From the IMG/VR virus record IMGVR_UViG_3300031952_000006: a stretch of 64,000 nucleotides of DNA; one strand, given 5' to 3'. The notes beneath the pieces were generated by a model, which did not search any database, was not told the DNA's origin, and was given only the letters and a program-made list of their open reading frames with translations. The stretch's first letter is position 1; each line of letters opens with the position of its first letter. Shown here piece after piece: positions 40,771-62,905 of this stretch. The position numbers were made by a program, and so were the translations under genes. This DNA is from a virus. Its lineage: Duplodnaviria > Heunggongvirae > Uroviricota > Caudoviricetes.

Positions 40771-40910
40771 GCCGGAGTAGCCCAATGGTTGAGGCACTTT
40801 TATTTTGAAAAAGCTAAAAACTTTACAGTTGGCATTACTCGAATGATTCGTCATTCCATCTATGGTAACTTACAAGCAAACAAATCTGAGTTCGAATCTC
40901 GGCTCCGGCA
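40771..40910 (+). tRNA. tRNA-Lys(UUU)-like gene carrying a 72-nt structured insert at the variable-loop position
   Basis: Perfect 7-bp acceptor GCCGGAG / CTCCGGC. D arm. Anticodon arm CTTTT-ATTTTGA-AAAAG (U33, TTT, G37). T arm CTGAG-TTCGAAT-CTCGG. Insert 40814-40885 contains GAATGA-TTCG-TCATTC. Confidence 0.5.
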
Positions 40911-40935
40911 CTTTTTTAGATCAGTAAGGACTAAT

Positions 40936-43986: not shown

Positions 43987-44163
43987 TGGATAATATGAAA
44001 GAACAAGGACAAGATCAAGTTACCTTCTCTATAGGTTGCCCTTCAAAAGATAAAAGAGATTCGCTGCGAAAATTGATACGGAAAATAGCAGCAAATGAGG
44101 ATGTTAAGAATTTTGATATAATCTATAAAGCCATTGCGCTTTATAGTAAACAAATTAAATGAA
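43987..44163 (+). CDS. small hypothetical protein (58 aa), possibly RHH-like
   Basis: ORF downstream of TTGACA (43929-34) + TATATG promoter-like element. QVTFSIGCPSKDKRDSLRKLIRK. Confidence 0.3.
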
Positions 44164-44200
44164 AATTATTCAGTGACACGCCACCTGCGTCATGCTTACA

Positions 44201-44276
44201 AGCAAAATAGCTCAGTTGGTAGAGCAGAAGTCTCATACACTTTAGGTCGTCAGTTCAATTCTGACATTTGCATCCA
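44201..44276 (+). tRNA. tRNA, anticodon CAU (Met or Ile2), CCA encoded
   Basis: D arm GCTC-AGTTGGTA-GAGC. Anticodon arm GAAGT-CTCATAC-ACTTT. T arm GTCAG-TTCAATT-CTGAC. Acceptor pairs at 2-6 only (A1·A72 and A7·A66 mismatches). CCA at 44274-76. Confidence 0.55.
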
Positions 44277-44319
44277 AAATAGCATATGCTACTCGCGTGT
44301 CTTTGAATGGTTTATATAT

Positions 44320-44456
44320 GGGGAAGTAGCTCAGTAGTAGAGCAACTTACGGCAAAATAAGTGTTAAAACTTTTTAATTACTGTTACTCACGCAGTTCGC
44401 TGCGTCACATTCAGTAATTTACAAGCAATGCAGTGGTGCAACTCCACTCTTCCCCA
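44320..44456 (+). ncRNA. non-canonical tRNA-like gene with ~70-nt structured insert (homologous to the insert in 40771..40910)
   Basis: Perfect acceptor GGGGAAG / CTTCCCC. Canonical D arm GCTC-AGTAGTA-GAGC. Stem ACTTA/TAAGT with an 8-nt loop CGGCAAAA (no U33). T stem AGTGG/CCACT with atypical loop TGCAACT. Insert 44363-44430 has AATTACTG...ACGCAG-TTCG-CTGCGT...CAGTAATT. Confidence 0.4.
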
Positions 44457-44994: not shown

Positions 44995-45032
44995 TTATCA
45001 AAGAATAAAGGATTCCATCAGAGAATAGTTAC

Positions 45033-45104
45033 AAGCTTATTGTGCAATTGGTAGCACACCAGTTTTTAGGACCGGCAGTGGGAGTTCAAGTCTCTCTAAG
45101 TTTA
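45033..45104 (+). tRNA. tRNA with anticodon UUA (ochre/amber-suppressor-like), embedded in a stem-flanked unit 45010-45135
   Basis: Acceptor AAGCTTA / TAAGTTT. D arm GTGC-AATTGGTA-GCAC. Anticodon stem CCAGT/ACCGG (one A·C mismatch) with loop TTTTAGG (U33, TTA, G37). T arm GGGAG-TTCAAGT-CTCTC. 5' flank GGATTC...GAGAATAG pairs with 3' flank CTATTATC...GAATCC, then T6. Confidence 0.45.
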
Positions 45105-45144
45105 CACATACTATTATCAACTCGAATCCTTTTTTCAGTCATAA

Positions 45145-45447
45145 ATGGAGGTTCTTATGACACGCAGACAAAATGAAATAGCTCCTGTAGTAATCACACC
45201 ACTTAATGTAAGCGACGACATTCGCAACAAAATCTTTGTTACGATTGATGGCCGCGACTGGCAAAAAGATCTGTCAGAGCTTGGTCTCACCTTTGACTCT
45301 TCAGAGCGTGATATAATGTCACGTCTTACTCCGCTAATCCAGGAAGAGTTTAACCAAGACATCAGCGATACGTATAAGATTCGCAAGGCAATCAATAGTC
45401 AAAATATCTATGTTATTCCGAACAGTACTGCAGGAATTGTCCTGTAG
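45145..45447 (+). CDS. hypothetical protein (100 aa)
   Basis: AATGGAGG SD. Lies between the two stem-flanked RNA units. Confidence 0.45.
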   Translation: MEVLMTRRQNEIAPVVITPLNVSDDIRNKIFVTIDGRDWQKDLSELGLTFDSSERDIMSRLTPLIQEEFNQDISDTYKIRKAINSQNIYVIPNSTAGIVL

Positions 45448-45617
45448 CTGTTTATAAGCAGCGCCTCCATCAGAGTAGAGCTACAAGCAAATTTTCCAAG
45501 TTCGAATCTTGGAATCGCCGCAGGGCGATTTGGCCGATTGGATAAGGCAAAAGACTTGAAATCTTTGATATAGCACAAACGCTCTACTCAACTCGAGGCA
45601 CTGCTTATACACAGCTA
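45445..45617 (+). ncRNA. Y-RNA-like element: long bipartite closing stem plus circularly permuted tRNA-like module, immediately upstream of Ro60 gene
   Basis: The 21-nt arms 45445-65 and 45597-617 are complementary with 2 mismatches. A second helix AGAGTAGAGC / GCTCTACTC follows. The enclosed hairpins run in the order T-arm (CCAAG-TTCGAAT-CTTGG), acceptor-like (AATCGCC-GCAG-GGCGATT), D-like (GCC-GATTGGATAA-GGC), anticodon-like (AAAGA-CTTGAAA-TCTTT). Ends 14 nt before the Ro60 start codon. Confidence 0.5.
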
Positions 45618-45631
45618 TAAGGAGAATTATT

Positions 45632-47233
45632 ATGCAAGAACCAACACTATCCTATCTCTCTAATGAAGATCGTCTGAAAGCCTACAATGCCATCGTTGGA
45701 GGGTGCGAACACGTATACTCAAAAGGAAAACTACAGCATGAGAAACTTGCTGGAGTACTTAGCATATTCATTCAGCTTGCAGAGCATGATCCATACTTTC
45801 TTGCTCACTTTGCTTCATATGCTGTTAAGAACCTTGAAAGTAAAGACTTGAAGGTCATAGCTGCATTTGCAAACTCACTGTCTGATGCAGATGGTACTCC
45901 CTTCATCACCGGAAAGGATGCTCAAGGAAAACCTATCTATAGTCCGACATACAAGAAACCAAATCTTCGGTTGGTGTCACAAGCTGCTGTTCAGGAGTTC
46001 GATCCTAAGCTGGTGAATCGTATTATCGAAATTGCCAACTTAAAGCAATCGATCGGAACCAGAAGAGAGGCAACACACTTTGCCAATTCTTTAAAAACCG
46101 CTATCAAGAAATGGGTACGCTTTCGTGAACAAAATCCGAAGGCTCTTGAAGGTATGAAGAAATCAGGTTTCGCACCAACCTTCAAAAACATTTACCGGAT
46201 GATGCACATGAAACCAAGCCAGGAAGCTGCAGAGATTCTCGGTTGGAGACAGGGCAGCACAAAGAAAGGAAACGTTGAGAAGATTGAAAAAAGAAATCTC
46301 ATAGATTTCAAAGGGCTTACTGACATTCAAATTGCTCAGAAAATTCGTGATGAGAAGATCCCAGTCTTAGGCGCTATGGGAGCTCTACCTTCTAAGATAT
46401 CTCCCGTCATTGCTGCAGCTGTCCTTGAGCAAGCATCAGGAAACCAAGCAGTCATTCTCAGAAATCTGTTTGATAGTCAGGGTCTGCTTAAAGATAAAGA
46501 AGTAATGAGGGTCTTCACTGAAAAGATTCAGACTGCCAAAACAGCACTGGATAGGGTTGAAAAACTCAACACCGAAGTCGATGAAGAAGTTCAAAAAGTT
46601 CTGAAGACAGCTAAAGCTGATAAGCGTAAAAAGGATGTCGGAAATGTTGGACGTGCCTATATCCATATTGACATCAGCGGCAGCATGACCGGTGCTATCG
46701 AATTCGCCAAGAACAATGGTGCAATCATTGCTGAGTGTATTGAGAATCCTGCAGAGAACTTCTTCTGGGGAGCATTCAATACCAATGGATATTCTTTGTC
46801 TAAACCGGCATCATTTGAAAAAGATGCATTCATGGCTTCTCTGTATGGTCTCAATGCTGGTGGCGGAACAAACTGCCTTGCTTGCTACAGCGATGCTCGA
46901 AAGAACAACTGTGATATTGATATCTACATCACCGACCAAGAGCATATGGGAGAGCCTATTGACCAGCTCATTCTTAAATATGATGCGCAGGGATTCTCCC
47001 GGCCAAAAGCTGTCGTCGTTGTTGACTTTTCGAATGGAAGAAGCAATGGATCTTTTAAAGATCATCTTGAAAGAGTAGGGATTCCTGTTTCTGTTATAAA
47101 ACCGCAAGCACTGACAGAAAGTGCGCTGGTCTCTCAGGCAATTAAGACTGCTTTGAAGGGAGCTACTGCAGTTATTGATGAAATCATGAATACCCCGTTA
47201 CTCAAACTTCCAGCATACTGGGAAGCAGTGTAA
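45632..47233 (+). CDS. rsr: Ro60/Rsr orthologue (TROVE-like helical N-terminal region + C-terminal vWA domain)
   Basis: 533 aa. N-terminal ~340 aa helical repeats. C-terminal vWA with MIDAS DISGSM...T...ITDQE. Co-located with the Y-RNA-like element. AAGGAGA SD. Confidence 0.6.
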   Translation: MQEPTLSYLSNEDRLKAYNAIVGGCEHVYSKGKLQHEKLAGVLSIFIQLAEHDPYFLAHFASYAVKNLESKDLKVIAAFANSLSDADGTPFITGKDAQGKPIYSPTYKKPNLRLVSQAAVQEFDPKLVNRIIEIANLKQSIGTRREATHFANSLKTAIKKWVRFREQNPKALEGMKKSGFAPTFKNIYRMMHMKPSQEAAEILGWRQGSTKKGNVEKIEKRNLIDFKGLTDIQIAQKIRDEKIPVLGAMGALPSKISPVIAAAVLEQASGNQAVILRNLFDSQGLLKDKEVMRVFTEKIQTAKTALDRVEKLNTEVDEEVQKVLKTAKADKRKKDVGNVGRAYIHIDISGSMTGAIEFAKNNGAIIAECIENPAENFFWGAFNTNGYSLSKPASFEKDAFMASLYGLNAGGGTNCLACYSDARKNNCDIDIYITDQEHMGEPIDQLILKYDAQGFSRPKAVVVVDFSNGRSNGSFKDHLERVGIPVSVIKPQALTESALVSQAIKTALKGATAVIDEIMNTPLLKLPAYWEAV

Positions 47234-49875: not shown

Positions 49876-50904
49876 ATGACTTATTTGACAAGTACAACGG
49901 GGACACTTACTGGAATAAGTTCATTCAATGATGCTACTGCAACGGGAAATTGGATTACTTATGACAATACAACAACAATAAATATAACTTCTGCTACAAA
50001 TATTTATTACAATCCTACTCAGTACAATCAATACATAACTAATGGTGGAACAGCAATCAATTTTGGCATTGTTCAAGACAAGAAAGTTATTCATCCTCAA
50101 TTATATTTTAAATTTGTTAAATCCGAGATGACCAAGCTTGAACAAAAAGAAATGACAGAACGCCTCTTCAAACTACAAACCTTGGTAAAGCAAGCTGAAG
50201 ACCTTGGGCAGAAAGCGCTATATGAAGACTTCGCTCGTAAGATTGCAATTACAGTTCGTGAACAGGAAATAAATGTCTGTGGAATTGAATACATCGTTAG
50301 CAAAGGCTCTGTGGATAAATATAAAGACAAAGTAAAAGATGTTGATATAAAGTTCAGCAAGCTTGAGGAATATTCTCGACCAATACCGACCAATGTTAAG
50401 AAACGCTTGGACAAGTTTAAGAAGCTCATGATGTTTGATAATTACATGGTGCTGTACCTTGATTATAAAGAGAAAATTGATATAGATAACAAAAAGAAAG
50501 CTGTTGCTGAACCGAAGACCAATAAACAAAAGATAAAGGAAAAAGATCCGATTCTGTTTGGAACTCTTGATTATGAACCAGATAAGCTCTACTTCATTGC
50601 CGACTGGATTGATGAATACTGTGATCTTACTCTTGATAAATTCGTACAAACGATTAAAAAGAATGATCCTGAGTACGAACTCGATGGCATTGACGAACTC
50701 GATGAAGAATATATTCAGAGAATGGTTAAAGAATCAAGAGAACGATTTGTTAGGTTGAAAGAAACTGATCCTGGAACGTATAAGAAACTCATGGTAGATG
50801 AAGATATGTCGTATCTTAAAAAACTTGAGAAAAAAGAATCGCAGGAACAAAAGAAAACATTAAGGGAAATAATATCACAAAGATTAAAAAAAGGTGATAA
50901 ATGA
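49876..50904 (+). CDS. hypothetical protein with T/N-rich N-terminus and K/E-rich coiled-coil C-terminus (342 aa)
   Basis: AGAGAGG SD. Confidence 0.4.
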   Translation: MTYLTSTTGTLTGISSFNDATATGNWITYDNTTTINITSATNIYYNPTQYNQYITNGGTAINFGIVQDKKVIHPQLYFKFVKSEMTKLEQKEMTERLFKLQTLVKQAEDLGQKALYEDFARKIAITVREQEINVCGIEYIVSKGSVDKYKDKVKDVDIKFSKLEEYSRPIPTNVKKRLDKFKKLMMFDNYMVLYLDYKEKIDIDNKKKAVAEPKTNKQKIKEKDPILFGTLDYEPDKLYFIADWIDEYCDLTLDKFVQTIKKNDPEYELDGIDELDEEYIQRMVKESRERFVRLKETDPGTYKKLMVDEDMSYLKKLEKKESQEQKKTLREIISQRLKKGDK

Positions 50905-51499: not shown

Positions 51500-51706
51500 A
51501 TGGGCGATTCAAATAAACCATGCCCAGTGTGTAAAGGTAAAGATGTGCTAATCGAAACCTACACCATAGAAAAATTCAAGTATTGTCGAATAGTATGTGT
51601 CAACTCCTGCCGAAAGGGAAATTGGTGCAAAAGCGCTGCTCGGGCATTAAAAGCCTGGGATGATAGAAAATGGTCAAAAACAGATGAACCGGGGTTACAT
51701 ACATGA
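51500..51706 (+). CDS. Cys-rich small protein (68 aa)
   Basis: CPVCKGK...CVNSCRKGNWC. Confidence 0.35.
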   Translation: MGDSNKPCPVCKGKDVLIETYTIEKFKYCRIVCVNSCRKGNWCKSAARALKAWDDRKWSKTDEPGLHT

Positions 51707-52539
51707 TTGATTTTGAAAAATTTACAATGGTTCAAACATTTATTGCACCCGTACTGAATCACAAGTGCCAATGCAATCGAAAGAAGTATACTGTTGAATC
51801 TGAGGATGGGTGGTATCGCATTACGGCTAAGGGGAACTTTATAGTGGAACGCATTCCTATTTCTGCTGAAATGGAAAGTTTTCCTGCCAAGAATATTATA
51901 AAGGGGTATACCTACGGCAATCAAATAGTATTTCAAAACTTTGATGTTGCCAAACGAAAAGCTGGAACTGATATGATGGCTCCTTTGGAGTTTAATCAAT
52001 CTGCAACATTTTCTTCAATAGAAGCAATCATTTGGGAAGATAAGCATATCTATTACTATCGTCCCAACTATGCAGATGTGGCAATCTATGAGGTTAAATC
52101 TCACTTTGACTCTGAAGAAGATATTCATACTGCTAAAGGTGTATCTCCTGAACTGAGAACACTATATCTCTTTCATGACATAGAACGCCAGCAGCTGCAA
52201 GAACTACAAAAAGCCATTCAACGAAAAGAAGAACAAAAGCAACGTGAAAAAGAACTGGAACAATTCAAACAAACCCTCCAGGGAAGATTGATTACAACAT
52301 TTAATCGCGCAGGGGCTCAAGTATTAAGTTACTCAGTATTACGAGATACTATTACTGTTGATTGGAAGCTTCTGGGATCAAACCAAGAGTTTAATTCAAT
52401 AATAGAACTTGAGACATTCAAAGTTCGAGAAGCTGGTTATTGCCTCAGCGGACATGATAAAGAACATACTGCACAGTCTATGGTAATGCTCGCTCAGGAT
52501 TACGAAGAGAGAGGATTAATCTACAAGACTCGGTATTAA
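51703..52539 (+). CDS. hypothetical protein (278 aa)
   Basis: ORF, ATGA-coupled. Confidence 0.4.
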   Translation: MIDFEKFTMVQTFIAPVLNHKCQCNRKKYTVESEDGWYRITAKGNFIVERIPISAEMESFPAKNIIKGYTYGNQIVFQNFDVAKRKAGTDMMAPLEFNQSATFSSIEAIIWEDKHIYYYRPNYADVAIYEVKSHFDSEEDIHTAKGVSPELRTLYLFHDIERQQLQELQKAIQRKEEQKQREKELEQFKQTLQGRLITTFNRAGAQVLSYSVLRDTITVDWKLLGSNQEFNSIIELETFKVREAGYCLSGHDKEHTAQSMVMLAQDYEERGLIYKTRY

Positions 52540-52780: not shown

Positions 52781-53908
52781 ATGTCAGAATATTATAACAA
52801 AATACATTTTGAAACATATGAAGAATCATCAAAGATGATACATGCATACGTGCAACTTCCTATGATACCCTTCTACGAAATTATCGATACTCTCAATGAA
52901 CAATTAAAGAGTAAGTATACAGCATTTCCGTATGACAGTGCATGCAGCGCTTATGCAGAACATGTATTTGATAAACTCAAAAAGCATACAAGTGCTGCTA
53001 AAGGTGGTATTAATGAACTACGTTCCCGTTTTTGGGATATCTATATGCCTTATATGTTTTACAAATCAGGTAAGAAAGTATTCAGACCAACAAAAGAATT
53101 GGTACACATGCTGGTTGATACCGAATTAAAGAATCTTGATGCTTTTTTTGTGCAATCACCATTCAAATGCATTTTCATTGCAATACCATCCGAAGTAAAA
53201 CTAATGAATCCGTTCAATCTACCAATTGATGGATTATACATAGCAGTATTTAACAAAGATGAGATACACTTCGATGGATTCTCTGAAGAATTTCAAAAGT
53301 ATGAAAAATATAAAAATAGTAAAAATGTTGTTATCTGTGCCGTCAGTGATATTGTACTACCTTTAGATGATCCTCGAGAGACAATGTATTATTGGAACAT
53401 AGCATTACGTGACGGTGATTTATTTGAACAAATAGATGTCATACTTGAAAGGTATGATAAAGAATATCAAAAGAAAGAATATGATTACTGCAACAAAGCC
53501 TATGATAGAACATTTCTAGAAAACATTTTATCGTTTTCAATTAATACGCTACTATATATCAACTCAAAAGACCCAAAAGAATTTGGGATCACTCCTATTA
53601 AAAAGGCAAACGTACAAAATTTAAAAAACAAAGCAAAAATACGAAAAGCCCAAAAGAAAACTCAAATACCGTATTATACCATAGGTCAAAACATTACTAT
53701 TGATCACTCATATAAGAATGTCATAAAAATGTATGAACCTGAGTTATCTCATCAGAGAAAGCTTTCAGGTAAATGGATTGTTCGGGGTCACTGGCGTAGT
53801 CAAGCCCACGGAAAAGAATTCAAAGAAAGAAAGATTATCTGGATTCAGCCATATGCCAAAGGGGAGGAGTTTGCAGAAATTATTGAGAAAGAATACGTAG
53901 TAAAATAA
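52781..53908 (+). CDS. hypothetical protein (375 aa)
   Basis: ORF. Confidence 0.4.
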   Translation: MSEYYNKIHFETYEESSKMIHAYVQLPMIPFYEIIDTLNEQLKSKYTAFPYDSACSAYAEHVFDKLKKHTSAAKGGINELRSRFWDIYMPYMFYKSGKKVFRPTKELVHMLVDTELKNLDAFFVQSPFKCIFIAIPSEVKLMNPFNLPIDGLYIAVFNKDEIHFDGFSEEFQKYEKYKNSKNVVICAVSDIVLPLDDPRETMYYWNIALRDGDLFEQIDVILERYDKEYQKKEYDYCNKAYDRTFLENILSFSINTLLYINSKDPKEFGITPIKKANVQNLKNKAKIRKAQKKTQIPYYTIGQNITIDHSYKNVIKMYEPELSHQRKLSGKWIVRGHWRSQAHGKEFKERKIIWIQPYAKGEEFAEIIEKEYVVK

Positions 53909-53923
53909 AAGGACATAAATAAA

Positions 53924-55531
53924 ATGAAACAAACTGAAGCCATTGAAATTATAATGGGAGGGCATAATGTTTTTCTTACCGGCGCTGCCGGATCAGGAAA
54001 AACATGGGTATTGAACAAATGCATTGAAAAATTAACAGAAAGCGGCAAGGATGTCGCAGTAACAGCCACAACTGGCATAGCTGCAACACACATAGATGGA
54101 TCTACAATACATTCCTGGTCAAGAATAATGATTCGTGATGAATCAGATTTAGCTGATGATGATGTCATAGAACACATTGTTGAAAACGATAAGACTGCTC
54201 GTAAGAATATACGAGCATGTGATGTTCTCATAATAGATGAAATATCTATGCTACACGCATACCAACTTGATGCTATCGATAAAATCTGCAAAGGAATTCG
54301 AAGATCAACCAAACCTTTTGGAGGAATTCAAATTATCTTATCTGGTGATTTCTTTCAACTTCCTCCCGTTGTTAAAAATGGAAAGAAAAAATGTTACGCA
54401 TTTGAATCACAGACATGGACAAGAAGCAACATAAAAGTTTGCTGTCTTGAAGAACAATATAGACAATTAGACAAGGAATTCATCTCAATTCTAAATGAAA
54501 TAAGAGAAAATTCGGTTAGTCCGACATCAAAAAAACTACTCGATAGCCGATACCTTGCAAAATTAGAAAATGAAAGTACACCGTTAAAATTATACCCACT
54601 AAATCAAGATGTAGATTTAATAAACTCAAGTGAGCTTGCAAAAATAAATAAACCAGCGAATACATACATAATGAACTCCTTTGGTGATCCAAATATCGTT
54701 GAATCCTTAAAAAAAGGATGCATTGCCAAAGAAGAACTTTCATTAAAAATAGGAACTCCTGTTATTTTTATAAAAAATAACAGGAAGGAAGGCTATATAA
54801 ATGGAACACAGGGAGTCGTTATCGGATTTACAGAGCCAGATCTTGATACTGAAGATTTCGATGAAGATACCGATGAAGAATCTAATGATGAAGAATACCC
54901 AATAGTAAAAACGATTGATGGTAAAATAATTACAGCATCTCCTGAATCCTGGAAAAGAATGAGACATGAAAAAACAGAAGTTCTTGATGAGTACGGAAAT
55001 AAGATAATTAAAGTACGTGAAGTTACTATAGCATCAGTCACTCAAATTCCTTTAATACTTGGTTGGTCAATAACTACGCACAAAGTACAAGGAATGTCGT
55101 TGGATTGTGTCGAAATGGATTTATCACGAGTATTTGAAGAAGGTATGGGATATGTTGCACTATCTCGAGTACGAACATTAGCTGGCATACGTCTTTTAGG
55201 AATGAATCAAATAGCACTGCGAGTTAATCCTAAGATTATTGAAATAGATAATATTTTCAGGAGTGACTCATATAAAAACAAAATTGAATTATGCTCAAAA
55301 GTTATTCTTTCTGAAAATTCAGATGAGAATTACGATAAAGAAGACGCTGATCTCGATGATATTTTTAAATCTTTTTGTGATTATGTTACAAAACAAACTG
55401 GAGAAGGGGCATCAAGAAGAACCATGGAAGCACTGGAAATTCTTTTTAATAGAATTGTTTCAGATCTTGATACTATTGTACTTGAGGCTACTTCACTGCA
55501 TAAAATTAGTAAAAATACCAAAGTGTCATGA
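53924..55531 (+). CDS. PIF1/RecD-like SF1 DNA helicase
   Basis: Walker A TGAAGSGKT. Walker B LIIDEISM. QLPPV. C-terminal SITTHKVQGMSLD. Confidence 0.75.
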   Translation: MKQTEAIEIIMGGHNVFLTGAAGSGKTWVLNKCIEKLTESGKDVAVTATTGIAATHIDGSTIHSWSRIMIRDESDLADDDVIEHIVENDKTARKNIRACDVLIIDEISMLHAYQLDAIDKICKGIRRSTKPFGGIQIILSGDFFQLPPVVKNGKKKCYAFESQTWTRSNIKVCCLEEQYRQLDKEFISILNEIRENSVSPTSKKLLDSRYLAKLENESTPLKLYPLNQDVDLINSSELAKINKPANTYIMNSFGDPNIVESLKKGCIAKEELSLKIGTPVIFIKNNRKEGYINGTQGVVIGFTEPDLDTEDFDEDTDEESNDEEYPIVKTIDGKIITASPESWKRMRHEKTEVLDEYGNKIIKVREVTIASVTQIPLILGWSITTHKVQGMSLDCVEMDLSRVFEEGMGYVALSRVRTLAGIRLLGMNQIALRVNPKIIEIDNIFRSDSYKNKIELCSKVILSENSDENYDKEDADLDDIFKSFCDYVTKQTGEGASRRTMEALEILFNRIVSDLDTIVLEATSLHKISKNTKVS

Positions 55532-60849: not shown

Positions 60850-61742
60850 TGGGTGGAGGATCGTATTCAGTATCTAACGCAACTGCAAGTGTTGAAGCAA
60901 GCTATACGACTATGGATGTAAAAACTGGTCGTAGGATGTTTAGATCAAAGGAAGAAATATTCACACAGAAATCTATCAACAATGCAATGAATCCTTATGG
61001 AATCGTCGTTCGAGAATCCCGAGATTCTAAGGAACATCCAAATTCCTTAGCTATCGTTATCGCTCTGGATGTTACCGGATCAATGGGATCGGTTCCTCAT
61101 CACCTCATTACTACAGGTCTTCCTACTCTTATGGGAGAGATTCTTGAGAAGGGAATCAAAGATCCCCAGGTTCTCTTTATGGGAATAGGAGACCATGAGT
61201 GCGATCAATCACCCCTGCAGGTAGCTCAGTTTGAGTCCAGCGACGACCTTCTGGATAAATGGCTCAAGGATGTCTATCTCGAAGGTGGTGGTGGGGCAAA
61301 CTATGGGGAATCATATCATCTCGCGTGGTACTTGGCTGGATATCATACGGCTATTGACTGTTTCGAAAAAAGAGGTGAGAAAGGATTTCTCTTTACCATA
61401 GGAGATGAACCAGTTCTTAAAAAAATATCAAAAAGCAAAGTAAAGGATATTATGGGTGATGGTCAGTATGAAGATTTTACGCACGATGCCCTTTTAAAAA
61501 AAGCTATGGAGAAGTACAATGTGTACCATCTTCATATTAAAGAAACCGCAGCTGGAAGTCGAAAAGAAGTTATCGATGGATGGAAACAAATTCTTCACGA
61601 TAATCTCATTGTCGTTGAGAATCATAGTGAATTGGCAACAACCATTGCTGACATTATAATCAAAAACGCTGCTACAAAACCAGAACAGAAAGTTGATGTT
61701 AAAATAGATATTAAGATTGAGAAACCTGAAATAATTCTATGA
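60849..61742 (+). CDS. von Willebrand factor A (vWA) domain protein
   Basis: MIDAS VIALDVTGSMGS. 297 aa. Overlaps the downstream PurA-like gene by 4 nt. Confidence 0.55.
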   Translation: MGGGSYSVSNATASVEASYTTMDVKTGRRMFRSKEEIFTQKSINNAMNPYGIVVRESRDSKEHPNSLAIVIALDVTGSMGSVPHHLITTGLPTLMGEILEKGIKDPQVLFMGIGDHECDQSPLQVAQFESSDDLLDKWLKDVYLEGGGGANYGESYHLAWYLAGYHTAIDCFEKRGEKGFLFTIGDEPVLKKISKSKVKDIMGDGQYEDFTHDALLKKAMEKYNVYHLHIKETAAGSRKEVIDGWKQILHDNLIVVENHSELATTIADIIIKNAATKPEQKVDVKIDIKIEKPEIIL

Positions 61743-62905
61743 AAAAGAAGAAACTGTTGGCTGTAATCGGCTTGTTATATGGCGACGAAGGAAAGGGACT
61801 CACAGTCGATTACCTTTGCTCACAAAATCCTAACTCGCTTGTCATTCGTTACTCAGGCGGCCCTCAGGCAGGGCATACCGTGTGCTATAATGGCATGCGG
61901 CATGTCTTTGCTAGTTTTGGATCAGGAACATTTAGAAAAGCTCCAACGTACATTTCTAAATATTGTGTTATTGATCCTATCGCTATTTTAAATGAATACA
62001 CTATATTATTAAAGAAAGATCTTTCGCCTGTTCTTTACATTGATATACGCTGTCCGGTAATAACCCCTTATGATTCTTTTCATAGTGGGACAGATAAGCA
62101 GTTTAAAGAGAACGGAACCTGCGGGGTTGGCATTGGTTCTACGTATCAGCGAGAACAGGATTTTTATTCTTTAACATTTCTCGATTTGTTTTACCCGTCT
62201 GTGTTGAAAATAAAACTTGAGAACATTAGAAAATATTACAAAGGTAGAAAAGATTTTGATTTAACACTGTTTTTAAAAGGATGTTCTTTTCTTACAGATA
62301 CGTTGAATTCTGCCTACTTCATTAAAAGAGCATACGGAATACCAAATATAAAATGTTCTACGTATATATTCGAAGGATCACAGGGGCTTCTTCTGGATCA
62401 AAACATAGGATTCTTCCCGCATGTTACACGAGGAAATACGGGGAGCAAGAATATTATAGAATTGTGTGGAACAGAGGATATTGAATTCTACCTTGTTACG
62501 AGAGCATATCAAACTCGTCATGGAAATGGTCCGATGACAAATGAAAACATATCTCATAATATACAAATCAATCCAGATGAGACAAATAGAAACCATCCTC
62601 ATCAAGGTGTTTTTAGAAGATCACTTTTAGATCTCAACTTGATTCATTATGGGATAAGTAAAGATTCTGTTATCTGTCATGCAAAGAAAAAAACTCTGGT
62701 TATTACATGCTTGGATCATATTAAAAATTCAAAGGTGTTATTTGAAGATATGTATAGATTTGTAGCCGCAGATTCTGTTTGTCGAAGTTATAATGAAAAT
62801 GAATTTATTGGAAAGATATCTAAAATACTGGATATACCTGACGTTCTCGCAAGTTCATCAGATGAGTCTAAAAATATGAAGAAACTACATTTTAAGGGAG
62901 ATTGA
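61739..62905 (+). CDS. adenylosuccinate-synthetase-family enzyme (PurA-like, PurZ candidate), 388 aa
   Basis: P-loop GDEGKG, GGPQAGHT, FEGSQGLLLDQNIGFFPHVTRGNT, YQTRHGNGP. These motifs align with E. coli PurA GDEGKGK / GGHNAGHT / [24 protein letters not shown] / YSTRVGAGP. About 40 aa shorter than cellular PurA. Confidence 0.7.
   Translation: MKKKKLLAVIGLLYGDEGKGLTVDYLCSQNPNSLVIRYSGGPQAGHTVCYNGMRHVFASFGSGTFRKAPTYISKYCVIDPIAILNEYTILLKKDLSPVLYIDIRCPVITPYDSFHSGTDKQFKENGTCGVGIGSTYQREQDFYSLTFLDLFYPSVLKIKLENIRKYYKGRKDFDLTLFLKGCSFLTDTLNSAYFIKRAYGIPNIKCSTYIFEGSQGLLLDQNIGFFPHVTRGNTGSKNIIELCGTEDIEFYLVTRAYQTRHGNGPMTNENISHNIQINPDETNRNHPHQGVFRRSLLDLNLIHYGISKDSVICHAKKKTLVITCLDHIKNSKVLFEDMYRFVAADSVCRSYNENEFIGKISKILDIPDVLASSSDESKNMKKLHFKGD

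What the first reader, a model, noticed from the sequence alone, without database searches (positions are those of the whole stretch)
45445..47233. Y-RNA-like structured RNA immediately upstream of a Ro60 (TROVE+vWA) orthologue
The 173 nt before the Ro60-like gene fold into the architecture described for bacterial Y RNAs (YrlA type). The two 21-nt ends (45445-65 and 45597-617) are complementary with two mismatches. A second ~9-bp helix follows (AGAGTAGAGC / GCTCTACTC). The closed region contains tRNA-like hairpins, including a textbook T-arm CCAAG-TTCGAAT-CTTGG. The element ends 14 nt before the start codon of a 533-aa protein whose C-terminus is a vWA/MIDAS domain (DISGSM) behind a ~340-aa helical region, which is the Ro60/Rsr layout. 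Ro60-Y RNA pairs are known in a few bacteria and mycobacteriophages. A phage-borne pair of this kind, together with the unusual module topology described separately, makes this the strongest candidate for a new RNP system in the window.
Basis: partly seen in the sequence, partly recalled or inferred. Interest (0 to 1): 0.85.

Follow-up and report, generated by a model that had tools for sequence, protein, structure and literature searches.

The report
Phage Ro60-like protein with tRNA-shaped partner RNA
A phage gene for a very divergent Ro60-type RNA-binding ring sits next to a 173-base RNA that is a circularly rearranged tRNA on a long stem, and the same stem "handle" is also attached to ordinary tRNAs nearby, which suggests that one protein ring docks onto a whole set of tRNA-like RNAs.

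Summary

The RNA is YrlA-like in layout: T arm, closed 7-bp acceptor, then D arm. It fails the Rfam YrlA/Y RNA models and lacks the GNCGAA motif. It keeps a full anticodon arm, so the long stem leaves from the variable-arm position.

The new point is that the stem is a recurrent "handle": helix, conserved internal loop, helix, then UACAAGC.
- **In the window:** it occurs five times between 40.8 and 45.6 kb. It flanks two whole tRNAs and forms a giant variable arm in two others.
- **In relatives:** it occurs 90 times on the gene strand and 0 on the other, around homologues.
- **Relatives with CCA:** 8 of 27 permuted copies encode NCCA after the acceptor.

Best reading is a Y-RNA-type RNP whose handle docks the Ro60-like ring onto tRNA-shaped cargo. 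Binding is inferred, not shown. I rate it a new variant of a known kind.

The parts
45445..45617 (+). 173-nt structured RNA: a circularly permuted, closed-acceptor tRNA mimic on a long stem (topology i)
   Evidence: z = -8.53. 25 of 51 pairs compensatory. ARAGORN calls a tRNA (Ser-like, UGA) after in-silico re-permutation.
45445..45467 (+). Handle stem 1, 5' strand. It pairs with 45595-45617. The outer 17 bp are sequence-invariant in six orthologues and the inner 5 bp covary.
45468..45472 (+). Conserved internal loop, 5' side (CAUCA). The opposite side is AACUC at 45590-45594.
   Evidence: Family consensus is 5' C(A/C)NNR and 3' NAACU(C/U), followed directly by stem 1.
45473..45481 (+). Handle stem 2, 5' strand. 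It pairs with 45581-45589 (9 bp).
   Evidence: 7 of 9 pairs show changes on both sides.
45482..45488 (+). Invariant UACAAGC junction motif. CUAC at 45481-45484 fits the YUAY that begins the variable region of YrlA.
   Evidence: PMC4201824.
45496..45512 (+). T arm CCAAG-UUCGAAU-CUUGG
   Evidence: 4 of 6 pairs compensatory.
45513..45530 (+). 7-bp acceptor-like stem AAUCGCC/GGCGAUU closed by GCAG (no CCA)
   Evidence: All 6 alifold pairs show compensatory changes.
45533..45548 (+). D arm (GCCG AUUGGAUA AGGC) with A14 and G18G19, preceded by U8
   Evidence: The Rfam tRNA model aligns 45524-45584 at 28.2 bits, against a gathering score of 29.
45550..45566 (+). Closed anticodon-like arm AAAGA-CUUGAAA-UCUUU. 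Positions 34-36 vary among orthologues (UGA, UGU, ACA, UAA).
45632..47233 (+). Ro60-like protein, 533 aa: a helical ring domain plus a vWA domain with MIDAS D347, S349, S351, T413, D435
45145..45447 (+). Conserved 100-aa ORF immediately upstream. Its UAG stop is the first 3 nt of the RNA.
   Evidence: tblastn finds homologues in 50-59 of the loci, directly upstream of the Ro60-like gene. No family hit.
45003..45140 (+). Handle flanking a whole tRNA (topology ii): tRNA anticodon UUA at 45033-45105, with UACAAGC at 45030
   Evidence: (44.3 bits).
44155..44321 (+). Handle flanking a whole tRNA-Met(CAU) at 44201-44276 (topology ii), with UACAAGC at 44197
   Evidence: (33.3 bits).
44320..44456 (+). 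tRNA whose variable-arm position holds the handle closed by a UUCG loop (topology iii; handle at 44376-44426)
   Evidence: Rfam tRNA 40.6 bits with a 76-nt insert.
40771..40911 (+). tRNA-Gln(UUG) with the closed handle between the anticodon arm and the T arm (topology iii; handle at 40827-40877)
   Evidence: Rfam 39.6 bits. ARAGORN models a 61-nt intron..
51703..52539 (+). Conserved 278-aa protein that travels with the Ro60-like gene. Function unknown.
   Evidence: Found in 37-38 loci. AF2 pLDDT 89.5 but no PDB fold match at E <= 1e-3.
27574..28164 (+). ThiF-family (E1-like) protein, 196 aa, found near the Ro60-like gene in 10 loci

Best explanation
The 173-nt element is the RNA partner of a phage-encoded, highly divergent Ro60-type ring protein. 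It is a Y-RNA-like molecule built as handle plus cargo.

**The handle.** It is stem 1, then a conserved internal loop (5' C-A-N-N-R, 3' N-A-A-C-U-Y), then stem 2, then single-stranded UACAAGC. It is the proposed docking site for the Ro60-like ring. That step is inferred.

**The cargo.** It is a complete tRNA cloverleaf in circularly permuted order: T arm, a 7-bp acceptor closed by a tetraloop, D arm and anticodon arm. The molecule is therefore a tRNA mimic that cannot be charged as made, like YrlA. The architecture is shown.

**Making the RNA.** It lies in the same transcription unit as the gene. It is probably cut out of the tRNA-array/Ro60 transcript at its long, nearly perfect 21-bp outer stem. 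That step is inferred.

**The wider family.** The same handle is attached to genuine tRNAs. It flanks them, or it replaces their variable arm. In relatives it also carries permuted tRNA genes that encode NCCA plus a linker. The RNP most likely brings the Ro60-like ring to tRNA-shaped RNAs of the phage's own tRNA array. The purpose would be maturation, quality control or protection, or tethering a host tRNA-binding enzyme. This last step is inferred by analogy with Ro60/Y RNA/PNPase complexes.
For: **Protein**
- The top 12 Foldseek hits are all Ro60/TROVE, with E 1e-9 to 2e-6.
- phmmer finds a collinear match to human Ro60, E = 3.7e-4.
- The MIDAS residues are invariant in 52 sequences.
- 12 of 52 members weakly hit Pfam vWA_Ro60.

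**RNA**
- z = -8.5, with covariation.
- It shows the YrlA hallmarks: same strand as and adjacent to the gene, T then closed acceptor then D order, and YUAY (PMC4201824; bioRxiv 312249).
- Re-permuted in silico, 24 of 27 such elements, including this one, are called tRNAs by ARAGORN.

**Handle**
- An independent stem-1 test gives 57 of 75 instances with 7/7 pairs, against 2.2% of controls.
- Under Watson-Crick-only selection, G-U outnumbers A-C 56 to 22.
- The strict census finds 90 copies on the gene strand and 0 on the other in 357 kb around homologues. It finds 1+1 in 185 kb of control viral DNA.
- In the window, copies lie only at 40.8-45.6 kb.
- Handles also carry 12-48-nt non-tRNA cargo. 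That fits a protein-docking unit.

**Context**
- 156 of 158 flanking tRNAs are on the gene strand.
- A homologue with only 25.6% identity in Virus Rctr197k directly follows a 33-tRNA array.
Against: - No experiment or computation here shows that the protein binds the handle.
- The handle and the gene both live in tRNA arrays, so their co-location could be indirect.
- I could not test tRNA arrays that lack the gene. The IMG/VR pattern scan returned only chance hits.
- The known Ro60-binding motifs are absent: no GNCGAAN0-1G and no Rfam Y RNA/YrlA match.
- No Pfam TROVE hit. A family profile finds nothing in PDB sequences.
- 44 of 80 homologue loci show no exact-motif handle. Many are short contigs, and some carry variants (CACAAGC; GCUU loop).
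- Rctr197k shows no handle.
- Other conserved neighbours could be the true binder: the 100-aa and 278-aa proteins.
Confidence: 0.55

Rival explanations
1. The handle is only an RNA-processing signal. It would be an RNase III/E/P entry site or a leader-trailer duplex that organises cutting of the long tRNA-array transcript. On this view 45445-45617 is a degenerate permuted tRNA left at the end of the array, and the Ro60-like gene is merely a neighbour.
For: In topology ii the handle pairs the 5' leader with the 3' trailer of otherwise normal tRNAs. The outer stem here is a 21-bp near-perfect duplex, a plausible RNase III substrate. The handle and the gene both sit in tRNA arrays. No Ro60-binding motif is present.
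Against: A leader-trailer signal does not explain the closed handle sitting inside tRNAs at the variable-arm position. It does not explain handles with 12-48-nt cargo. It does not explain sequence-specific conservation of loop and junction nucleotides while the helices covary. The mimic is conserved with compensatory changes in every arm, so it is not decaying. No handle was found in the Rctr197k array.
Confidence: 0.2
2. It is a circularly permuted or split tRNA gene whose product becomes a working tRNA. RNase P and 3' trimming would open the acceptor. The two pieces would then stay paired through the handle or be ligated, and the tRNA would be charged and used in translation.
For: 8 of 27 permuted relatives encode NCCA directly after a 7-bp acceptor strand, followed by a 6-35-nt linker, and 4 more encode NCC. 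24 of 27 become ARAGORN tRNAs when re-permuted. The 7-bp acceptor is the RNase P determinant that lets M. smegmatis YrlA be cleaved and CCA-added (PMC4201824). Permuted tmRNA genes that give two-piece RNAs are a bacterial precedent (background knowledge).
Against: In this window's clade the acceptor is closed by only 3-5 nt and has no CCA. Positions 34-36 differ among close orthologues (UGA, UGU, ACA, UAA) while the rest is conserved. There is no BHB motif at the termini, and no RNA ligase was seen among the window ORFs scanned. A 30-bp rod at the variable arm is unlikely to fit the ribosome (inference).
Confidence: 0.08
3. It is a cis-acting leader of the Ro60-like mRNA. A tRNA-shaped 5' UTR would be bound by the protein itself or by a tRNA-binding factor to control translation of the gene 14 nt downstream.
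For: The stem ends right at the Shine-Dalgarno sequence (AAGGAG, within the 14 nt before the ATG) and no terminator separates RNA and gene. In 11 of 36 handle-bearing loci an element ends 60 nt or less before the start codon.
Against: Handles are mostly not next to the gene: 72 lie upstream at a median of 823 nt and 18 lie downstream. The same handle is attached to ordinary tRNAs. The SD and ATG lie outside the structure.
Confidence: 0.07
4. It is a DNA-level inverted repeat (a recombination or replication site), or a chance palindrome.
For: The long inverted repeat also scores on the minus strand with the covariance model (62.7 bits against 203 on the plus strand).
Against: All copies have one orientation (90 to 0). 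There is a G-U over A-C bias. The tRNA arms inside are asymmetric, and z = -8.5.
Confidence: 0.02

Closest known systems
YrlA-type bacterial and phage Y RNAs with Rsr/Ro60 (Chen et al. 2014, PMC4201824; structure in bioRxiv 10.1101/312249)
   Same: Both are encoded next to a Ro60-type gene and on its strand. Both have a long stem plus a tRNA-like domain with T arm, closed acceptor-like hairpin and D arm in that order. Both have YUAY at the start of the variable region and the tRNA elbow nucleotides. YrlAs are already described as resembling circularly permuted tRNAs with closed acceptor stems. The 7-bp acceptor matches M. smegmatis YrlA. YrlA is also known in 22 phages.
   Different: There is no match to the Rfam models and no GNCGAAN0-1G motif. 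In YrlA the Ro60-binding stem continues from the anticodon-stem position and there is no closed anticodon arm. Here a complete anticodon arm is kept and the stem leaves from the variable-arm position. The stem carries its own conserved loop and UACAAGC signature. It is shared with genuine tRNAs in two further topologies. The partner protein lacks a detectable TROVE signature.
Thermus phage phiLo Ro60 with Yrl1/Yrl2 (PMC12135203; PDB 9KOP, 9L5Y)
   Same: It is a phage-encoded Ro60 ring plus vWA with Y-RNA-like RNAs encoded just upstream. It is a top structural match to the model here.
   Different: The phiLo Yrls were picked by a CGAA motif in a large bulge and are not described as tRNA-shaped. 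Sequence identity to the phiLo chain in the structural alignments is 11-14%. No tRNA-array context is described there.
Circularly permuted tRNA genes of Cyanidioschyzon merolae, other algae and Thermofilum pendens (PMC3978253)
   Same: The 3' half (T arm and acceptor 3' strand) is encoded upstream of the 5' half. Relatives of this element encode NCCA plus a linker between the halves. The same structure serves as an intron-like insert in non-permuted tRNAs.
   Different: Those genes use a BHB motif, a splicing endonuclease and a circular intermediate. Here the termini form a long helix with a symmetric internal loop, not a BHB. The hosts are bacterial or phage. The window's copy has no CCA or linker. 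As of 2014 that review listed only algae and one archaeon.
Two-piece tmRNA from permuted ssrA genes (background knowledge; cited in PMC3978253 as Mao et al. 2009)
   Same: It is a bacterial tRNA-like RNA encoded in permuted order, whose pieces stay together by base pairing.
   Different: tmRNA has an mRNA-like part and partners with SmpB. It has no relation to Ro60 and no shared handle.

Membership tests
Ro60 / TROVE protein family | Pfam TROVE domain (PF05731) detectable in the N-terminal ~340 aa | tested here: not met
   No TROVE hit at E <= 1 for the window protein, for any of 52 family members or for 10 distant relatives.
Ro60 / TROVE protein family | Fold: alpha-helical (HEAT-like) ring domain followed by a vWA domain | tested here: met
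Ro60 / TROVE protein family | MIDAS motif DxSxS...T...D in the vWA domain | tested here: met
   D347, S349, S351, T413 and D435 are invariant in 52 sequences.
Ro60 / TROVE protein family | Significant sequence similarity to known Ro60 proteins | tested here: inconclusive
   phmmer to human Ro60 9nen_A gives E = 3.7e-4 and is collinear. The family profile finds nothing in PDB sequences. Weak vWA_Ro60 hits appear in 12 of 52 members.
Ro60 / TROVE protein family | Binds a Y RNA on the outer surface, and single-stranded RNA ends in the central hole | not testable with these tools
   This needs EMSA, RIP or a structure.
YrlA / Y RNA (Rfam; Chen et al. 2014) | Match to the curated covariance models | tested here: not met
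   The only Rfam match in 45380-45680 at E <= 10 that has meaning is a partial tRNA hit of 28.2 bits.
YrlA / Y RNA (Rfam; Chen et al. 2014) | Encoded within 4 kb of the Ro60 gene and on its strand | tested here: met
   It ends 14 nt upstream of the ATG on the same strand. The same holds in orthologous loci.
YrlA / Y RNA (Rfam; Chen et al. 2014) | tRNA-like domain in the order T arm, closed acceptor-like stem-loop, D arm, with elbow nucleotides | tested here: met
   The T loop is UUCGAAU with G53-C61, and U8, A14 and G18G19 are present.
YrlA / Y RNA (Rfam; Chen et al. 2014) | GNCGAAN0-1G (Ro60-binding) motif near the 5' end | tested here: not met
   No GNCGAA occurs within 45445-45617 on either strand.
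YrlA / Y RNA (Rfam; Chen et al. 2014) | Ro60-binding stem continuous with the 'anticodon stem' (no closed anticodon arm) | tested here: not met
   A closed 5-bp arm with a 7-nt loop (45550-45566) aligns to the tRNA anticodon arm. The long stem joins between the anticodon arm and the T arm.
YrlA / Y RNA (Rfam; Chen et al. 2014) | Conserved YUAY at the start of the variable region | tested here: met
   CUAC lies at 45481-45484. UAC is invariant in the orthologues and across the handle family.
Canonical tRNA gene | Contiguous cloverleaf with free 5' and 3' acceptor ends | tested here: not met
   ARAGORN finds no tRNA at 45445-45617. Rfam tRNA gives 28.2 bits, below the gathering score of 29, over the 5' half only. 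The acceptor is closed by GCAG.
Circularly permuted tRNA genes (algal/archaeal type) | 3' half encoded upstream of the 5' half, giving a full cloverleaf after re-permutation | tested here: met
   ARAGORN calls a tRNA in 24 of 27 re-permuted elements, including the window's.
Circularly permuted tRNA genes (algal/archaeal type) | BHB motif at the paired termini (3-nt bulges separated by a 4-bp helix) | tested here: not met
   The termini form helix, opposed 5x5 internal loop, helix. There are no staggered 3-nt bulges.
Circularly permuted tRNA genes (algal/archaeal type) | Removable intervening sequence between the acceptor 3' end (CCA) and +1 | tested here: inconclusive
   The window has only the 4-nt GCAG and no CCA. 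Among relatives, 8 of 27 have NCCA followed by a linker of 6-35 nt.

The most novel reading that the evidence does not exclude
The conserved handle is a portable docking module for a previously unrecognised branch of Ro60-like rings that live in phage and bacterial tRNA arrays. By attaching the handle in three permutations, the system loads the ring with tRNA mimics, with precursor tRNAs and with mature-shaped tRNAs. The three permutations are around a tRNA, in place of its variable arm, or as the open ends of a permuted tRNA. Some cargo comes from the first permuted tRNA genes seen outside algae and archaea, which would mature into two-piece, CCA-ended tRNAs. The RNP would be a tRNA maturation, repair or protection machine, or a decoy against host anticodon nucleases. 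It would also give a direct evolutionary link between tRNAs and Y RNAs.
Probability: 0.3. Interest if true: 0.85.

Novelty: new variant of a known kind. Interest (0 to 1): 0.7.

Why it matters
Why bacterial Y RNAs mimic tRNA, and what bacterial or phage Ro60 does with them, is still open.

- **Scale of the family.** This Ro60-like family is large and unannotated. An HMM search found 449 clusters at 50% identity with E <= 1e-3. It sits systematically inside tRNA arrays.
- **The RNA link.** One conserved RNA handle links a tRNA mimic, genuine tRNAs and CCA-encoding permuted tRNA genes.
- **What it would provide if binding is confirmed.** It would give (a) a defined, mutable docking motif for a Ro60-type protein, (b) natural intermediates between tRNAs and Y RNAs, and (c) a candidate phage system acting on tRNA supply during infection.
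- **Practical warning.** TROVE HMMs and the Rfam Y RNA models miss a whole branch of these RNPs.

Tried and rejected
- **Rfam.** At gathering and E-value thresholds it returned nothing but tRNA.
- **Family libraries on the Ro60-like protein.** Pfam, PHROGs and NCBIfam gave no family.
- **Family profile against PDB sequences.** No hit.
- **Search of cultured phages.** blastn found nothing. tblastn found only two distant relatives.
- **Co-occurrence test.** I scanned IMG/VR with GTTCC-N11-17-TACAAGC-N60-90-ACTTGAAC. The 21 matches were all chance hits, with no stem pairing, no tRNA cargo and no Ro60-like gene. The pattern was too narrow: it missed L005 by one base. The test is uninformative.
- **Search for an enzymatic partner.** The conserved 278-aa neighbour folds confidently (pLDDT 89.5) but has no PDB fold match. 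The 100-aa neighbour has no family. ThiF-like is generic. No RtcB, RNA ligase or PNPase was seen among the window ORFs scanned.
- **Promoter and terminator scan.** Promoter counts equal those of shuffled sequence, and no terminator separates the RNA from the gene.
- **BHB or archaeal-type intron reading.** Rejected, because the loops are opposed rather than staggered.
- **Virus Rctr197k.** It has the gene after a 33-tRNA array but no handle.
Full report
**1. The observation**

- The ends 45445-45465 and 45597-45617 pair at 19 of 21 positions.
- A 9-bp second helix pairs 45473-45481 with 45581-45589.
- The T arm CCAAG-UUCGAAU-CUUGG lies at 45496-45512.
- The element ends 14 nt before the ATG of a 533-aa ORF (45632-47233) that carries DISGSM.

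The fold is not chance. The MFE is -70.5 kcal/mol against -38.9 +/- 3.7 for shuffles, z = -8.53.

Close homologues of the ORF carry the same RNA in the same place. In a six-sequence alignment, 25 of 51 predicted pairs keep pairing through changes on both sides. That compares with 12.4 +/- 2.2 in column shuffles and 2-8 when partners are slid. Every helix except the D stem and the anticodon stem covaries.

**2. The protein**

No Pfam, PHROG or NCBIfam family is hit. TROVE is not detected in the window protein, in 52 family members or in 10 distant relatives.

Other evidence does point to Ro60.
- phmmer finds human Ro60 collinearly at E = 3.7e-4.
- An AlphaFold2 model from a 52-sequence alignment (pLDDT 82) matches only Ro60 proteins over its full length.
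- The top 12 Foldseek hits are all Ro60/TROVE.
- The MIDAS residues D347, S349, S351, T413 and D435 are invariant.

The family is large and unannotated. The word-indexed search found at least 311 homologues. The exhaustive HMM search found 449 clusters at 50% identity. I therefore call it a Ro60-like protein by fold, not a demonstrable TROVE-family orthologue.

**3. Anatomy of the RNA**

Read 5' to 3', the parts are:
- stem 1 (45445-45467);
- internal loop CAUCA;
- stem 2 (45473-45481);
- UACAAGC;
- a 7-nt linker;
- the T arm;
- acceptor 3' strand AAUCGCC, loop GCAG, acceptor 5' strand GGCGAUU;
- UG;
- the D arm, with A14 and G18G19;
- A;
- an anticodon-like arm AAAGA-CUUGAAA-UCUUU;
- a 14-nt linker;
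- stem 2', then AACUC, then stem 1'.

The Rfam tRNA model aligns 45524-45584 (acceptor 5' strand, D arm and anticodon arm) at 28.2 bits, just under its threshold. The T arm lies upstream of that stretch. The element is therefore a complete tRNA cloverleaf in circularly permuted order. Its acceptor is closed by a tetraloop, and it is opened in the variable region, where the long stem is attached.

I removed the stem in silico and re-ordered the halves. ARAGORN then calls a tRNA in 24 of 27 such elements, including this one.

**4. Comparison with YrlA**

Chen et al. 2014 and the YrlA structure paper describe YrlA as follows:
- a Ro60-binding stem with a GNCGAAN0-1G motif;
- YUAY opening a variable region;
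- T arm, closed acceptor-like stem and D arm;
- the Ro60-binding module continuing from the anticodon-stem position.

They already regard most YrlAs as resembling circularly permuted tRNAs with closed acceptors.

This element shares several of these features. It sits on the gene's strand and next to it. It has the T, AS, D order. It has YUAY (CUAC at 45481-45484), the elbow nucleotides, and a 7-bp acceptor like M. smegmatis YrlA.

It also differs. No Rfam match appears even at E <= 10. There is no GNCGAA. A closed anticodon arm is retained, so the stem occupies the variable-arm position rather than the anticodon position. It works like a YrlA by architecture, but it fails the membership tests for the curated family.

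**5. The handle recurs**

A covariance model of the element hit many places per locus around homologues, all on the gene's strand. It also hit two further sites in the window that contain ordinary tRNAs.

Inspection shows a shared module. It consists of stem 1, an internal loop (5' C-A/C-N-N-R, 3' N-A-A-C-U-C/U), stem 2 and UACAAGC. It occurs in three topologies.
- **(i) Permuted, as here.** The open ends of stem 1 are the RNA ends.
- **(ii) Flanking a whole tRNA.** In the window these are tRNA-Met 44201-44276 and the UUA-anticodon tRNA 45033-45105. The AAGC of the motif forms the start of the acceptor stem.
- **(iii) Closed by a loop and sitting between the anticodon arm and the T arm of a tRNA.** In the window these are 44320-44456 and 40771-40911. 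Rfam and ARAGORN model them as 76-nt and 61-nt inserts.

A scripted census over about 80 non-redundant loci gave roughly 41 copies of type i, 28 of type iii and 19-28 of type ii.

Stem 1 was not used for detection, so it serves as an independent test. It is fully paired (7/7) in 57 of 75 instances, against 2.2% of controls, and its sequences differ widely. Under Watson-Crick-only selection, G-U outnumbers A-C 56 to 22, as expected for an RNA read from this strand.

With strict criteria there are 90 handles on the gene strand and none on the other in 357 kb. Control viral DNA (185 kb) has 1+1. In the 64-kb window, handles occur only between 40.8 and 45.6 kb. Some handles carry only 12-48 nt of non-tRNA cargo. 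Motif variants exist: CACAAGC, and a GCUU loop.

**6. Relatives with real acceptor ends**

In the window's own clade the acceptor is closed by 3-5 nt and has no CCA. In more distant loci, 8 of 27 permuted elements have N73-CCA immediately after the 7-bp acceptor 3' strand, followed by a 6-35-nt linker and then position +1. Four more have NCC. By chance, about 0.4 of 27 would be expected to show CCA at that position.

These look like genuine permuted tRNA genes. RNase P plus 3' trimming would convert them into two-piece tRNAs held together by the handle. That is the same shape as topology iii, but with an open variable arm. This step is inference.

The window's copy looks like the closed, non-chargeable derivative, that is, a true mimic. 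Its positions 34-36 vary among close orthologues (UGA, UGU, ACA, UAA) while the arm is otherwise invariant. That argues against a decoding role.

**7. Context**

The Ro60-like gene is embedded in tRNA arrays. Of 158 flanking tRNAs, 156 are on its strand. A homologue with only 25.6% identity in Virus Rctr197k directly follows a 33-tRNA array, though without this handle.

Several neighbours are conserved.
- A ~100-aa protein lies immediately upstream (50-59 loci).
- A ~278-aa protein is found in 37-38 loci.
- A ThiF-like protein is found in 10 loci.
- A 342-aa transposase-like protein is found in 9 loci.

None could be assigned a function. The 278-aa protein has a confident model but no PDB fold match.

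One homologue sits in a small island of a bacterial chromosome. The system is therefore not strictly viral. The window itself looks phage-derived: it has PHROG hits, HNH, AcrVA2-like, PIF1 and PurZ-like genes, and its relatives occur in IMG/VR.

**8. Mechanism**

*Shown:* the RNA structure, its permuted-tRNA architecture, the recurrent handle, the Ro60 fold of the neighbour, and the array context.

*Inferred:* the Ro60-like ring docks on the handle. The conserved loop and UACAAGC nucleotides, set in covarying helices, are what a sequence-specific protein site looks like. The cargo presents a tRNA shape to a tRNA-binding effector, or is itself the client. This would parallel Ro60/Y RNA/PNPase complexes and the phiLo Ro60-Yrl-PNPase complex.

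*Release of the RNA:* cutting it from the operon transcript at the 21-bp outer stem is plausible but untested. No promoter or terminator signal stands out.

I put 0.55 on this reading. The main rival (0.2) is that the handle is only a processing signal of the array and the gene a bystander. That reading does not explain topology iii or the tiny-cargo handles.

**9. Novelty and limits**

Ro60-Y RNA pairs in phages are known. Examples are the mycobacteriophage YrlAs, phiLo and the jumbo-phage ROT/TROVE proteins. The bare finding is therefore a new member of a known kind.

Several things appear new. I did not find them in the paper library that I could search.
- This is a TROVE-invisible Ro60-like branch.
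- The stem attaches at the variable-arm position.
- A single handle is shared by a mimic, real tRNAs and CCA-encoding permuted tRNA genes. Permuted tRNA genes were previously listed only for algae and one archaeon (PMC3978253).

The key gap is that protein-handle binding and genome-wide co-occurrence remain untested. My one attempt at a collection-wide pattern scan returned only chance matches.

Noticed in passing
window 45033-45105; L013, L017, L015, L022 (alignment A5): The handle-flanked tRNA has anticodon UUA (an ochre suppressor by ARAGORN) and a G3:U70 pair. Its orthologues in close relatives carry ACG, GCA and UCG in an element where mean column identity is 83%. The anticodon triplet is therefore hypervariable.
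   Followed up: partly
window 61739-62905 and 29121-29795: A PurZ-like ORF hits phrog_1211, '2-aminooxy adenylosuccinate synthetase', at E = 1e-51. There is also an HD-domain ORF. Together they hint that this phage may use 2-aminoadenine (Z) in its DNA.
   Followed up: no
window 49876-50904: A 342-aa ORF matches a PHROG 'transposase' family (E = 1.4e-21). It is conserved near the Ro60-like gene in 9 loci.
   Followed up: partly
L006 1492-1543, 1733-1795, 2135-2179; L009 4764-4814; L031 3436-3474; L062 387-413: Here the handles enclose only 12-48 nt of non-tRNA sequence, for example a lone D-arm-like hairpin. The handle can therefore exist almost on its own.
   Followed up: no
L095 6348-13975 (same island as L077): A homologue lies in a bacterial chromosome between threonine-biosynthesis genes and RecQ. 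It sits in a ~7.5-kb island with about 14 tRNAs (several with handles), an RNaseH_like (PF04308) ORF, the 87-aa and 266-aa partners and a ThiF-like gene. This may be the minimal gene set of the system.
   Followed up: partly
L117 (Virus Rctr197k, KX853510.1 184234-190096): A homologue with 25.6% identity is annotated only as a misc_feature. It directly follows an array of 33 tRNA genes on the same strand. No handle was detected there.
   Followed up: partly
window 45445-45461 with 45601-45617: The outer 17 bp of stem 1 (UA.CU.U.UAUAAG.AG / CU.CUUAUA.A.AG.UA) are sequence-invariant in six orthologues, although the inner part of the same helix covaries. This suggests a second sequence-specific site, for a processing enzyme or a protein.
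   Followed up: no
window 45445-45447: The UAG stop codon of the conserved 100-aa ORF (45145-45447) is the first three nucleotides of the RNA's closing stem.
   Followed up: no
window 52781-53908 and 53924-55531: By the precomputed Pfam hits on the identical contig L001, these ORFs are AcrVA2-like and a PIF1-family helicase. A Band_7 protein and a small ferredoxin follow the Ro60-like gene.
   Followed up: no
L044 109-1620: Seven consecutive covariance-model hits lie upstream of the homologue. They are handle-bearing tRNAs and permuted tRNAs, and they form a dense array of these elements.
   Followed up: partly
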